Source of the DNA: Escherichia coli
GTDB taxonomy: Bacteria > Pseudomonadota > Gammaproteobacteria > Enterobacterales > Enterobacteriaceae
Direction: 5' to 3' (one strand)
Assembly (NCBI RefSeq): GCF_003790525.1
Contig: NZ_CP033635.1
Length of the DNA: 64,000 nt
Shown: positions 30,614 to 32,919 of the stretch, piece by piece
Layout of the letters: every line of letters starts with the position of its first letter
Numbering within the stretch: position 1 is the stretch's first letter
Notes under the pieces: model-generated
What the model was told of the DNA's origin: nothing
Database searches by the model: none
What the model saw: the letters and a program-made list of their open reading frames with translations, nothing else
Translations under genes and position numbers: made by a program

Positions 30614-30659
30614 CCCCCACCAACTGCAGCGGTTGGTGGGGGCTTAACTGTTATTTTTT
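30614..30659. terminator. hairpin terminator after int (possibly bidirectional)
   Basis: Perfect 11-bp inverted repeat CCCCCACCAAC / GTTGGTGGGGG followed by T-run. Confidence 0.6.
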
Positions 30660-31150
30660 GATTTTTGCCTTCAGGCGTGTCCACAGGAAAATGCAAACTG
30701 CGGTATATACCCGTGTGATAAACAACAGTTTAAGGCTGAAATACTCTCCTGCCTCGCTGGCATTCGTTTCAAACATAGCGAAAAGAACACTCTGCGAGAA
30801 CTCATGACTATAAATAAAATAATAACAGAGTGCTGTCAGTGACGTAGTCCAGAGAATAATACCGACAACCGCTGCAATAATTTTTATCCGTTCTGGAAAA
30901 AGAAACACGGGTATCCGCCACAGGGAGCTGAATAACAGTGAATCTCGTATTCCATTTATTCCACCGTATCCGGTGCTGAAGATAATCACCTGCAGCAGGG
31001 TGGAAAAGATAAAGTATCGCCCCCGTGCGCTCCGGCTGAAAGCAGGTCTGCTGTTTCCGGCATTTAAATGTATTGACCATCTCCCGGTAAAATGTAATAA
31101 ATCCCCCGTTACCGGAAAACCGATGAACAGAATTCGGACAGAAAATGAGT
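30651..31150 (-). pseudogene. N-terminal membrane-domain fragment, possibly of a phosphoethanolamine-transferase/sulfatase-family LPS-modifying enzyme
   Basis: Hydrophobic segments with FAMFETN-like motif; no catalytic domain follows; abuts int terminator. Confidence 0.35.
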
Positions 31151-31153
31151 TCC

Positions 31154-32096
31154 TCAGTTACCTGTTGCGTTTCCCCCGGTCTGATGAGCCAGAGACACAA
31201 TGGTCTGTACCGTTCTGTTGATATTAAACCGGTATTCGATATCTTCTCTGGCGCTGGCAACCATCATCCTGAAGCGTTCCGGGCGGGACAAAAAATCCCG
31301 AAGCGCACTGGTCCATGCAGTCATATCTCCCACAGGTAAAAGTGTTCCTGTCACATTTTTCTGAATGGCATCCGGGATCCCGCCAGTCTCACTGGCAATA
31401 ACGGGAACACCGGAGGCTGACGCTTCAGCCAGGACCATGCCAAATGCCTCATTTTTCAGAAGGCATGATAGCACACTGGCAACCCGGTATATCGGTAACG
31501 CCGGGAAAACAGCACCAGCCATGAAAACATCACCACTCATTCCCAGTGATTCAATCTGCAGGCGAAGGCGTTCTTCGTATTCCTCACGACCAGCGCCCAC
31601 CACGAGCCATCGAAATACTTTCCCTTCCATCTTCAGTTGGTGCAACACCCGGAGCATAAATTCATGCCCTTTCTCGGGACGCAACATACCCACCTGGACA
31701 ATCAGCGGGATATTGCCCGCTGATTCTGTCCATCCCTGAATATGCGGAGGTAACTGTTGCCTGACTTCTCTGTGTAATACAGAAACGATGCCAGCATATC
31801 AGACGGCTCAGGCCTGCAATGTTACTGTCATGACCACTGTGGCAGATTACCAGATCAGGTCTGAATTACCGGATTACCTGCCGCAGTCTGATGATGGAAG
31901 GAAGGTGAAGACTGTTCCTGAAAGGAATAAAAGTAACATCATGTCCGATTGTTCTGGCTTCATGAGCTATTTTACTTTTTTCCCTGCAGGCGAGTAAAAC
32001 AGAATGCCCCTGTTTCTGGAGCGCTGTCATCTGTGCCAGAGCCTGTAACTCCTGGCCACCAATATCTGGTGAAGACTCAGTGAATAAAATCTTCAT
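31154..32096 (-). pseudogene. GT4-family glycosyltransferase, disrupted
   Basis: N-terminal piece (31866-32096) and C-terminal piece (31154-31693, EAFGMVLAEA...GVPVIA motif) in different frames. Confidence 0.6.
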
Positions 32097-32919
32097 TATT
32101 AATTCTCTGGTAATCTTGGCCCCTTATGAAGAGCCAGTAATGAAGAGAAAAATGGCGTGATATAATAAAAAGGCACCGTTTCAGCCAACCGCAATATTCC
32201 CGTTCTTTTGTACTAATACGTCCTATAAGTAATGAACCTTTTACAGGGCAGTTCATTCTTCTTTCCGTTGTATATAAATAAGATAAACCAAGTTCTCTGG
32301 TGAGATTAATATAATCTCTGCTATAATATCCTGCAGGCCAGCATAGATGGGGACTACAGTATCCCAGTTTTTCCTTCAGACATTGTTTGCCTGTCATAAT
32401 AGCTTCTTCCATGAGTCGGCACTGCTCAGTACGTGGTACAGACAGTCTGTCCCAGCGTTTATGTGAATGGGTATGTAAATGGAATTCAACAAGACCGGAA
32501 TCACGCATTTCCCGGACTTCAGACCAGCGAAGCATCACTTCATCGGAACGGTTATCTGCAATCAACTGCTCACAGTCGCGATGCGAATATTCCCGTTTCT
32601 GTCTGTAACGCACCTTCCCGTCACCAATCAACCCTGTAATGAGAAAAATATGCGTATGAAGATTGTATTCCTTCAGTACCGGCCATGCCCGGAACCAGTT
32701 ATCAAGATATCCGTCATCGAATGTAATCATGAAGCTCTTTCTTGGAAGCATTCCCCCCTGATAAAAATATTAAAGTTCAGCGGATGTTACTGTCCGCCAG
32801 TTATTTTTTGCGAGCCACTCTATCTGTTCACAAAATATTTCAGGTGAAAGTGTCACAAGCCCCGGACAGCGACTGACATGATGGTACATCAGTACGGGAA
32901 GATGTCTTGCATTCAACAT
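32077..32919 (-). pseudogene. NodB-type polysaccharide deacetylase, frameshifted
   Basis: N-terminal 49 codons (LPVLMYHHV) end at a stop near 32770; main ORF 32077-32751 carries the TFDDGY NodB motif. Confidence 0.6.

What the first reader, a model, noticed from the sequence alone, without database searches (positions are those of the whole stretch)
30651..32919. Decayed LPS/polysaccharide-modification trio (deacetylase, GT4 glycosyltransferase, membrane fragment)
Three co-oriented minus-strand genes with overlapping starts look like a former operon: a NodB-type polysaccharide deacetylase (frameshift near 32760), a GT4 glycosyltransferase broken between 31693 and 31866, and the N-terminal membrane part of a putative phosphoethanolamine-transferase-like protein lacking its catalytic domain. 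The architecture is reminiscent of shf-capU-type surface-modification loci of enteroaggregative E. coli and Shigella plasmids. All three appear inactivated.
Basis: partly seen in the sequence, partly recalled or inferred. Interest (0 to 1): 0.5.

Follow-up and report, generated by a model that had tools for sequence, protein, structure and literature searches.

The report
Dead ecf-type LPS-modification operon remnant
This is the broken, non-functional leftover of a known E. coli cell-surface (lipopolysaccharide) modification operon, carried as dead cargo at the edge of a mobile genomic island; it is ordinary and public annotation already flags it as pseudogenes.

Summary
Window 30672-32919 (minus strand) carries three co-oriented pseudogenes: a CE4/NodB polysaccharide deacetylase, a GT4 glycosyltransferase, and the first ~140 codons of an EptC/CptA-type phosphoethanolamine transferase. 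RefSeq already flags all three as pseudogenes in identical copies.

One detail is wrong. The deacetylase break near 32760 is an in-frame TAA at 32772-32770, not a frameshift. A separate 1-bp deletion lies near its 3' end. The GT4 gene has a TAA, a 164-bp deletion and three 1-bp indels. The transferase has lost its start codon and everything after codon ~141, where it abuts the terminator of a P4-type integrase gene.

The closest known relative is the ecf1-ecf2(wabB)-ecf3-ecf4(lpxM2) operon of EHEC plasmid pO157 (74-86% amino-acid identity). The shf-capU-virK locus is more distant (56-66%, and no VirK match).

The lesions are not sequencing errors. The same allele is 99.9-100% identical in 28 complete E. 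coli genome records. Seven checked carriers and the window form at least six chromosomal backgrounds that differ by 1.5-3.2% in the adjacent core DNA. The operon therefore died before the island spread. Interest is low.

The parts
32099..32919 (-). Pseudogene of an Ecf1/Shf-type CE4 (NodB) polysaccharide deacetylase, 273 codons when intact. It has an in-frame TAA at 32772-32770 (codon 50) and a 1-bp deletion in the T-run 32171-32167 that shifts the last ~23 codons. It also has 11 amino-acid replacements at positions invariant in five homologues.
   Evidence: Alignment A1; indel coordinates; tblastn 85% to pO157 Ecf1, 93% to the intact LH50-c copy, 62% to Shf; PF01522; PGAP 'frameshifted; internal stop'; invariant-site replacements; dN/dS 0.77 versus 0.08 between intact copies.
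31154..32099 (-). Pseudogene of an Ecf2/WabB/CapU-type GT4 glycosyltransferase, 368 codons when intact. Lesions: TAA at 31868-31866; a 164-bp out-of-frame deletion at about 31784/31783 with TTTC microhomology, removing about codons 112-162; a 1-bp deletion at about 31470 and a 1-bp insertion at about 31456, which scramble the segment just before the EX7E motif; and a 1-bp deletion at about 31177 that changes the C-terminus.
   Evidence: Alignment A1; tblastn in two frames, residues 1-111 and 163-367; PF00534 on the C-terminal ORF; PGAP pseudogene.
30672..31073 (-). 5' remnant (about codons 1-141 of 573) of an Ecf3/EptC(CptA)-type phosphoethanolamine transferase. Only the transmembrane part survives. 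The start codon is ATG->ATA (31073-31071). There are 4-bp and 7/8-bp deletions at about 31025 and 31010, and a 12-bp repeat-slippage deletion at about 30746. The sulfatase-type catalytic domain and the downstream lpxM2 gene are absent.
   Evidence: Alignment A2; tblastn residues 1-144, 74% to pO157 Ecf3; NCBIfam CptA profile positions 22-131 only; PF08019; in the intact homologue, residues 203-572 match the solved EptC catalytic domain 5zzu.
30604..30671 (+). 3' flank of the integrase gene with a G+C-rich hairpin (30614-30642) and T-rich tails. Homology to ecf3 stops abruptly at 30672/30671, so this is the junction that truncated the operon.
   Evidence: homology to L002/L003 begins at 30672/30676; hairpin.
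29386..30603 (+). Intact P4-type tyrosine integrase at the left edge of the genomic island. The island starts about 4 bp after the ynjA stop codon, at about 29233. PGAP places the integrase start at 29416.
   Evidence: core homology ends at window ~29232; no tRNA in the window; G+C drops from ~0.55 to 0.36-0.46.
32920..33767 (.). A+T-rich (G+C ~0.36-0.41) intergenic region between the relic operon and the divergent yebF-like gene. It is presumably the former promoter region and is 96% identical to the intact LH50-c locus.
   Evidence: Promoter activity was not tested; the consensus scan was no better than shuffles.
33768..34120 (+). Divergent yebF-like gene, also frameshifted: A8->A6 in the run 33834-33839. 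It belongs to the same module shared with LH50-c, which ends at about 34165.
   Evidence: Alignment A3; ORFs 33768-33983 and 33947-34120 lie in different frames.

Best explanation
The locus is a dead chromosomal copy of an ecf-type LPS-modification operon. That operon has the order deacetylase Ecf1/Shf, then GlcNAc transferase Ecf2/WabB, then EptC-like phosphoethanolamine transferase Ecf3, then LpxM2. It is best known from EHEC plasmid pO157.

When intact, the module is thought to decorate the LPS inner core and lipid A. From the literature: WabB adds GlcNAc to heptose III of the R3 core, the deacetylase is presumed to convert it to GlcN, the EptC paralogue would add phosphoethanolamine, and LpxM2 adds myristate.

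Here none of these steps can occur. Every gene carries several independent disabling lesions. The 3' three-quarters of ecf3 and all of lpxM2 were removed by a rearrangement that joined codon ~141 of ecf3 to the terminator of a P4-type integrase gene at the edge of a genomic island inserted just after ynjA.

Shown: the homology, the lesions, the junction, relaxed constraint, and the identity of the allele across divergent hosts. Inferred: the decay happened once, in an ancestor of the island, and the relic then spread passively as island cargo. It does nothing now.
For: 1. Orthology. tblastn of pO157 Ecf1/2/3 against the window gives 85%, 79-86% and 74% identity, in the same gene order and orientation. 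DNA identity is 94.7% to the LH50-c chromosomal copy, where the deacetylase and GT4 are intact, and 84% to EHEC plasmid copies where all genes are intact.
2. Lesions. There are two nonsense codons, one 164-bp deletion, five small frameshifting indels, a lost start codon, further small deletions in the ecf3 remnant (4-, 7/8- and 12-bp) and a truncation. PGAP independently calls all three pseudogenes.
3. Relaxed selection. Deacetylase dN/dS is 0.77 for window versus LH50-c, against 0.08 between intact copies. For GT4 the values are 0.16-0.30 against 0.07-0.13. Eleven replacements fall at sites invariant in five homologues, including Shigella Shf.
4. Not an artefact. The 2.8-kb region is 99.9-100% identical in 28 complete genome records from pigs, chickens and humans in several countries. 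In eight carriers the island differs by 0-7 of 6068 bases, while the adjoining core differs by 105-221 of 6.8 kb between at least six backgrounds.
5. Function of intact relatives. ecf1-4 are annotated as deacetylase, LPS alpha-1,7-GlcNAc transferase, membrane protein and MsbB2, and described as a 'lipid A modification system' (PMC2323221). WabB decorates HepIII of the R3 core with GlcNAc (bioRxiv 10.1101/536201). The C-terminal domain of the intact Ecf3-type protein matches solved E. coli EptC at E = 6e-224.
Against: No expression data are available. A 224-codon ORF (32751-32077) still covers most of the NodB domain (PF01522) and begins at an ATG created by an ACG->ATG change, so residual production of a truncated protein cannot be excluded from sequence alone. 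GT4 dN/dS is only mildly raised, and the counts are small. The event that created the 30671/30672 junction is not identified: no IS end or repeat lies at the junction.
Confidence: 0.93

Rival explanations
1. The genes are really intact, and the breaks are sequencing or assembly errors such as homopolymer miscalls.
For: Three of the small indels lie in short homopolymer runs: T5 at 32171-32167, the A-run at about 31456, and the G-run at about 31177.
Against: Two lesions are G->T substitutions that create TAA. One is a 164-bp deletion. One is a truncation at a novel junction, and the start codon is mutated. The identical allele appears in 28 complete genome records from different laboratories, hosts and countries, and the seven carriers checked plus the window represent at least six core backgrounds.
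Confidence: 0.01
2. It is a relic of the shf-capU-virK-msbB2 locus of Shigella pINV / EAEC pAA plasmids.
For: Shf and RfbU/CapU are true homologues of the first two genes, at 62% and 56-66% amino-acid identity. The gene order of deacetylase then GT4 is the same, and msbB2/lpxM ends both operons.
Against: The third gene is an EptC/CptA-type transferase, not virK, and VirK has no tblastn hit. Identity to pO157 Ecf1-3 is 12-25 points higher. The intact LH50-c deacetylase is 90.5% identical to EHEC-plasmid copies and 69% identical to Shigella copies.
Confidence: 0.04
3. The locus keeps a partial function. One possibility is an N-terminally truncated deacetylase made from the new ATG at 32751. Another is on/off phase variation through the homopolymer tracts.
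For: A 224-codon ORF retains the TFDDG and HxxxH motifs. An ACG->ATG change creates its start immediately after the stop, with an AGGGGGG stretch upstream. The yebF-like gene and the 3' end of the deacetylase are broken at mononucleotide runs.
Against: The ORF lacks the first 56 residues, including the conserved PVLMYHHV strand that aligns with the start of the IcaB/PgaB fold. The SD-like run is only 1-2 nt from the ATG. The C-terminus is also frameshifted, and conserved residues are replaced, for example E196A in CWPEGYY and D173A. Its partner GT4 is irreparably deleted, so no GlcNAc substrate would be installed. Slippage cannot revert the nonsense codons or the 164-bp deletion. No length variation at these runs was seen across eight carriers, which differ by 0-7 substitutions and no gaps.
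Confidence: 0.03

Closest known systems
ecf operon (ecf1-ecf2/wabB-ecf3-ecf4/lpxM2, pO157p79-82) of E. coli O157:H7 plasmid pO157 and other EHEC plasmids
   Same: The gene families, order, orientation and stop/start overlap of genes 1-2 are the same. Amino-acid identity is 85%, 79-86% and 74%. The third gene is an EptC/CptA paralogue.
   Different: The window copy is chromosomal, in an island next to ynjA, rather than plasmid-borne. All three genes are pseudogenes, ecf4/lpxM2 is missing, and DNA identity to the plasmid copies is only ~84%.
Chromosomal ecf-like locus of E. coli LH50-c (NZ_CP100500.1, 982282-987075)
   Same: This is the closest sequence relative, at 94.7% DNA identity over 30672-~34165, and it shares the divergent yebF-like gene.
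   Different: In LH50-c the deacetylase, GT4 and lpxM are intact and only the cptA-like gene is frameshifted. The locus also sits in a different chromosomal context, not at ynjA.
shf-rfbU(capU/Sfgtr4)-virK-msbB2 of Shigella flexneri pWR100/pCP301 and EAEC 042 pAA2
   Same: The first two genes are homologous (deacetylase SfPgdA/Shf and GT4 SfGtr4/CapU), and the operon is co-oriented and ends in an lpxM paralogue (PMC7355660).
   Different: Identity is 56-66%. The third gene is virK rather than an eptC-like gene. The Shigella genes are functional, PhoP-regulated, and affect lysozyme/PMN resistance and biofilm (PMC7355660).
PgaB / IcaB poly-beta-1,6-GlcNAc de-N-acetylases (CE4)
   Same: The fold family is the same. 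The best solved matches are 4wcj (annotated 'polysaccharide deacetylase'; IcaB from my own recall) and PgaB/BpsB (5bu6, 4u10, 3vus, 4f9d).
   Different: Scores are far below the equivalog cut-offs: 102.7 bits against 321.9 for the intact relative and 60.8 for the window ORF. Plasmid PgaB copies are ~23-27% identical. There are no pgaACD or icaADC partners here.
E. coli EptC (CptA/YijP), LPS core heptose-I phosphoethanolamine transferase
   Same: The intact Ecf3-type relative passes the NCBIfam CptA cut-offs (1049.9 bits against 404) and matches the EptC structure 5zzu at 6e-224.
   Different: The window keeps only profile positions ~22-131 of 556 (146.9 bits against a cut-off of 900). The catalytic domain is absent.

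Membership tests
ecf-type LPS-modification operon (pO157 ecf1-4) | Co-oriented gene order: CE4 deacetylase, then GT4 (WabB), then EptC-like transferase | tested here: met
   tblastn places Ecf1, Ecf2 and Ecf3 in that order on the minus strand from 32919 to 30666. pO157 has the same layout.
ecf-type LPS-modification operon (pO157 ecf1-4) | Fourth gene lpxM2/msbB2 downstream of ecf3 | tested here: not met
   Homology ends at 30672 and is followed by the integrase terminator and integrase gene.
ecf-type LPS-modification operon (pO157 ecf1-4) | Close sequence relationship to Ecf1-3, closer than to Shf/CapU | tested here: met
   85/79-86/74% against 62/56-66% and no hit to VirK. 90.5% against 69% for the intact LH50-c deacetylase.
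ecf-type LPS-modification operon (pO157 ecf1-4) | Intact reading frames, i.e. a working operon | tested here: not met
   There are nonsense codons, indels, a 164-bp deletion, a lost start codon and a truncation. PGAP calls all three pseudogenes.
ecf-type LPS-modification operon (pO157 ecf1-4) | Thermoregulated promoter with intrinsically curved DNA; effect on LPS structure | not testable with these tools
   This feature is known only from the literature (PMC2811833). The upstream region is A+T-rich, but curvature and expression were not measured.
shf-capU-virK-msbB2 locus (Shigella/EAEC) | virK as the third gene | tested here: not met
   VirK from pCP301 gives no tblastn hit in 30500-33100. 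The third gene matches CptA.
shf-capU-virK-msbB2 locus (Shigella/EAEC) | Shf and CapU homologues adjacent and co-oriented | tested here: met
   62% and 56-66% identity.
CE4 / NodB polysaccharide deacetylase (PF01522) | Domain match and the TFDDG and HxxxH metal/catalytic motifs | tested here: met
   PF01522 at 3.6e-22. The motifs ITFDDGY and HLHTHSH are present in the conceptual translation.
CE4 / NodB polysaccharide deacetylase (PF01522) | A complete, uninterrupted catalytic domain | tested here: not met
   There is a TAA at codon 50, a frameshift at codon ~250, and replacements at 11 invariant positions.
PgaB/IcaB PNAG deacetylase equivalogs | Score above the NCBIfam curated cut-off | tested here: not met
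   Even the intact relative scores 102.7 against 321.9 (PgaB) and 75.3 against 248.35 (IcaB).
GT4 glycosyltransferase (PF00534) | C-terminal Glycos_transf_1 domain with the EX7E motif | tested here: met
   PF00534 at 1.1e-26. NEAFGMVLAE is retained, but the preceding VVVMPS is scrambled to VLSCLLK by the -1/+1 indel pair.
GT4 glycosyltransferase (PF00534) | Complete N-terminal acceptor-binding Rossmann domain | tested here: not met
   Codons ~112-162 are deleted and there is a stop at codon ~78. The 76-aa N-terminal ORF gave no NCBIfam hit.
EptC/CptA phosphoethanolamine transferase | N-terminal transmembrane domain (EptA_B_N) | tested here: met
   PF08019 at 1.3e-5. NCBIfam CptA 8.2e-43 over profile positions 22-131.
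EptC/CptA phosphoethanolamine transferase | Periplasmic sulfatase-type catalytic domain; score above the curated cut-off | tested here: not met
   The domain is absent because the sequence ends at codon ~141. The score is 146.9 bits against a cut-off of 900. In the intact relative, residues 203-572 carry the EptC catalytic domain.

The most novel reading that the evidence does not exclude
The most novel reading not excluded is that the relic is not wholly inert. The ACG->ATG change just after the nonsense codon could let cells make a 224-residue NodB-domain protein. Alternatively, the remnant transcript could have acquired a new role, such as a regulatory or small membrane protein from the 112-codon EptC N-terminus. 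Either could explain why the relic is carried unchanged in at least six divergent E. coli backgrounds.
Probability: 0.03. Interest if true: 0.3.

Novelty: already known. Interest (0 to 1): 0.08.

Why it matters
It matters little. The operon family (ecf / shf-wabB) is described in the literature, and RefSeq already marks these three genes as pseudogenes.

There are three modest points of value. First, the relic is correctly attributed to the EHEC-plasmid ecf lineage rather than to shf-capU-virK. Second, it is a clean example of dead cargo spreading with a site-specific island: the island is at most 0.12% divergent while the flanking core is 1.5-3.2% divergent, so the decay predates dissemination. 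Third, there is a small annotation correction, because the neighbouring 57-aa 'YebF family protein' is the tail of a frameshifted gene.

Tried and rejected
1. Sequencing-error explanation. Rejected because of the types of lesion and because the allele is identical across 28 genome records, with at least six core backgrounds among the eight loci compared.
2. Defining the right-hand end of the integrase module from related integrases. This failed: the nearest other integrases are only ~85% identical and their homology stops at window ~30582, inside the gene. The event that made the 30671/30672 junction therefore remains unidentified.
3. Repeat search around the junction. No IS ends or flanking direct repeats were found, only the terminator hairpin.
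4. Rfam scan of 28500-36000. No RNA family was found.
5. Promoter consensus scan of the upstream region. It was no better than shuffled sequence (7 sites against 7.9 expected) and so is uninformative.
6. tRNA scan. There is no tRNA in the window, so the island is not tRNA-associated.
7. PgaB/IcaB membership. Considered and rejected as equivalogs, because scores are far below the cut-offs.
8. The primary ecf paper (PMC1087426) could not be opened. The descriptions of ecf1-4 rest on PMC2323221 and PMC2811833.
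Full report
WHAT IS THERE

The window is E. coli chromosome. Positions 1-29232 are core genes, running from pfkB through the chb, kat, ast, xthA and ydjXYZ genes to ynjA. Core homology to ordinary E. coli genomes stops about 4 bp after the ynjA stop codon, at about 29232.

From there a genomic island begins. Its first gene is an intact P4-type tyrosine integrase (29386/29416-30603, + strand). G+C drops from ~0.55 to 0.36-0.46, and there is no tRNA anywhere in the window.

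FAMILY ASSIGNMENT OF THE WINDOW'S OWN FRAGMENTS

- ORF 32751-32077 matches PF01522 Polysacc_deac_1 at 3.6e-22.
- ORF 31693-31154 matches PF00534 Glycos_transf_1 at 1.1e-26.
- ORF 30989-30651 matches PF08019 EptA_B_N at 1.3e-5. It also matches NCBIfam CptA at 8e-43, but only over profile positions 22-131 of 556.

INTACT RELATIVES AND EXACT LESIONS

The closest relative is a chromosomal locus in strain LH50-c, at 94.7% DNA identity. There the deacetylase (273 aa), GT4 (368 aa) and a downstream lpxM are intact, and the cptA-like gene is frameshifted. EHEC-type plasmids such as pSTEC866, p14EC017c and pO157 Sakai carry fully intact four-gene versions at ~84% DNA identity.

Alignments A1 and A2, with coordinates extracted, give the following lesions.

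Deacetylase:
- GAR->TAA at 32772-32770. This is in frame: tblastn runs through it from 32919 to 32167 in a single frame.
- One T lost from the run 32171-32167.

GT4:
- GAA->TAA at 31868-31866.
- A 164-bp deletion at about 31784/31783, flanked by TTTC microhomology.
- A 1-bp deletion at about 31470 and a 1-bp insertion at about 31456.
- A 1-bp deletion at about 31177.

Transferase:
- ATG->ATA at 31073-31071.
- A 4-bp deletion and a 7/8-bp deletion at about 31025 and 31010.
- A 12-bp deletion at about 30746 that removes one copy of an imperfect direct repeat.
- Complete loss of homology at 30672, which is codon ~141 of 573.

The rest of the description is right in outline.

EVIDENCE OF LONG-STANDING DECAY

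Between the two intact copies (LH50-c versus pSTEC866), dN/dS is 0.07-0.13. For the window versus LH50-c it is 0.77 in the deacetylase (17 non-synonymous against 6 synonymous changes) and 0.16-0.30 in the GT4 segments.

The window deacetylase has 11 amino-acid replacements at positions that are invariant in five homologues, including Shigella Shf. Examples are E196A in the CWPEGYY motif and D173A.

The divergent yebF-like neighbour, which belongs to the same module shared with LH50-c (window 30672-~34165), is also frameshifted by A8->A6 at 33834-33839.

NOT AN ARTEFACT, AND OLDER THAN THE ISLAND'S SPREAD

The 2.8-kb region is 99.9-100% identical in 28 complete E. coli genome records from pigs, poultry and humans in China, Japan, Russia, Ecuador, Switzerland, the USA and elsewhere. 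PGAP calls the same three pseudogenes in each of the seven loci inspected.

I compared the window with seven of these carriers. The 6.8 kb of core DNA to the left of the island differs by 105-221 substitutions (1.5-3.2%) between at least six distinct backgrounds. The first 6 kb of the island, which includes the relic, differs by 0-7 substitutions and no gaps.

So the lesions are real. They were already present when the island entered these lineages, by site-specific integration next to ynjA or by homologous transfer of the whole region.

WHICH KNOWN SYSTEM

Reference proteins were run against the window with tblastn.

| Reference protein | Identity to the window |
|---|---|
| pO157 Ecf1 | 85% |
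| pO157 Ecf2 | 79-86% |
| pO157 Ecf3 | 74% |
| Shigella pCP301 Shf | 62% |
| Shigella pCP301 RfbU/CapU | 56-66% |
| Shigella pCP301 VirK | no hit |

The intact LH50-c deacetylase is 90.5% identical to the copies on O157/O145-type plasmids and 69% identical to Shigella Shf.

In pO157 the four genes pO157p79-82 are the ecf operon: ecf1 is a deacetylase, ecf2 an LPS alpha-1,7-GlcNAc transferase, ecf3 a membrane protein, and ecf4 is MsbB2 (PMC2323221). The operon is thermoregulated and implicated in LPS modification and environmental persistence (PMC2811833).

Ecf2 is WabB, which adds GlcNAc to heptose III of the R3 core (bioRxiv 10.1101/536201). The Ecf3-type protein passes the NCBIfam CptA cut-offs, and its C-terminal domain matches the solved EptC structure 5zzu at 6e-224.

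The Shigella/EAEC cousins SfPgdA/Shf and SfGtr4/CapU are functional. They interact with each other and affect lysozyme and neutrophil resistance and biofilm (PMC7355660).

The relic is therefore an ecf-type locus. The shf-capU comparison is a valid family resemblance but not the closest one, and the virK criterion fails.

DISTRIBUTION

An ecf-type locus, detected by megablast with the LH50-c ecf1-3 sequence, occurs in 584 of 5426 complete E. coli genomes. Of the matching places, 569 are on plasmids (O157, O26, O111, O145, O121 and others) and 39 are chromosomal. Among the best matches per record, 28 fall in the 90-95% identity band, which corresponds to the decayed allele described here, and 2 are at 99% or more, i.e. 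LH50-c-like.

MECHANISM

When intact, the operon would work as follows:
- WabB transfers GlcNAc to HepIII of the LPS inner core (from the literature).
- The CE4 enzyme presumably de-N-acetylates it. This is inferred, and other substrates such as peptidoglycan or PNAG have been proposed for Shf/SfPgdA.
- The EptC paralogue adds phosphoethanolamine (inferred from homology).
- LpxM2 myristoylates lipid A (from the literature).

In the window none of these steps is possible. The GT4 lacks ~55 codons of its N-terminal domain and has a premature stop. The deacetylase is interrupted at codon 50. The transferase has no catalytic domain. lpxM2 is absent.

The only loophole is the 224-codon ORF that starts at an ATG created by an ACG->ATG change at 32751. 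It lacks the conserved N-terminal PVLMYHHV strand, which aligns with the start of the IcaB/PgaB fold. Its SD-like run is only 1-2 nt from the ATG, its C-terminus is frameshifted, and it has no partner enzyme. I give residual function about 3%.

VERDICT

This is an ordinary pseudogenised operon remnant that is already annotated as such. Novelty: already known. Interest: low (0.08).

Noticed in passing
window 33768-34120 (+): The yebF-like gene divergent from the relic is itself frameshifted: A8->A6 at 33834-33839 relative to LH50-c. RefSeq annotates only its 57-aa C-terminal piece (33947-34120) as an intact 'YebF family protein', which is probably a mis-annotation.
   Followed up: partly
window ~29233 (island left end), integrase 29386-30603: A P4-type integrase island is inserted about 4 bp after the ynjA stop codon, with no tRNA anywhere in the window. 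This exact integrase occurs in only ~30 complete genomes, and the next closest integrases are ~85% identical.
   Followed up: partly
window 22400-29232 versus 29233-35300: The core flank differs by 1.5-3.2% between carriers, while the island differs by at most 0.12%. The island has therefore entered at least six E. coli backgrounds at the same site recently.
   Followed up: yes
window ~35000-64000: By mapping to the annotation of strain SFE8, the rest of the island is an IS graveyard. It holds ISEc12, IS5, IS66, IS3, IS110 and IS630 fragments and many pseudogenes. It also carries an intact iha (siderophore receptor/adhesin), a PerC-family regulator, an SSB, a ProQ/FinO fragment, a PhoX-family protein, decayed ABC-transporter genes and remnants of conjugative-element genes.
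   Followed up: no
window 34618-35007 (-): There is an intact 129-aa cytochrome b562 paralogue with a signal peptide, in a very A+T-rich stretch (G+C ~0.30-0.33) just beyond the module shared with LH50-c.
   Followed up: no
window 50395-51927: An extra ~1.5-kb IS3-family element (orfA/orfB ORFs 50706-51053 and 50873-51919) is present in the window but absent from strain SFE8.
   Followed up: partly
L002 (LH50-c) 4705-6425: Even in the best-preserved chromosomal relative, the cptA/ecf3-like gene is frameshifted while the deacetylase, GT4 and lpxM stay intact. This suggests the PEtN transferase is the first gene lost in the chromosomal lineage.
   Followed up: no
window 32751: An ACG->ATG substitution creates a start codon 18 nt after the TAA that interrupts the deacetylase, giving a 224-codon ORF. 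This is probably coincidence.
   Followed up: partly
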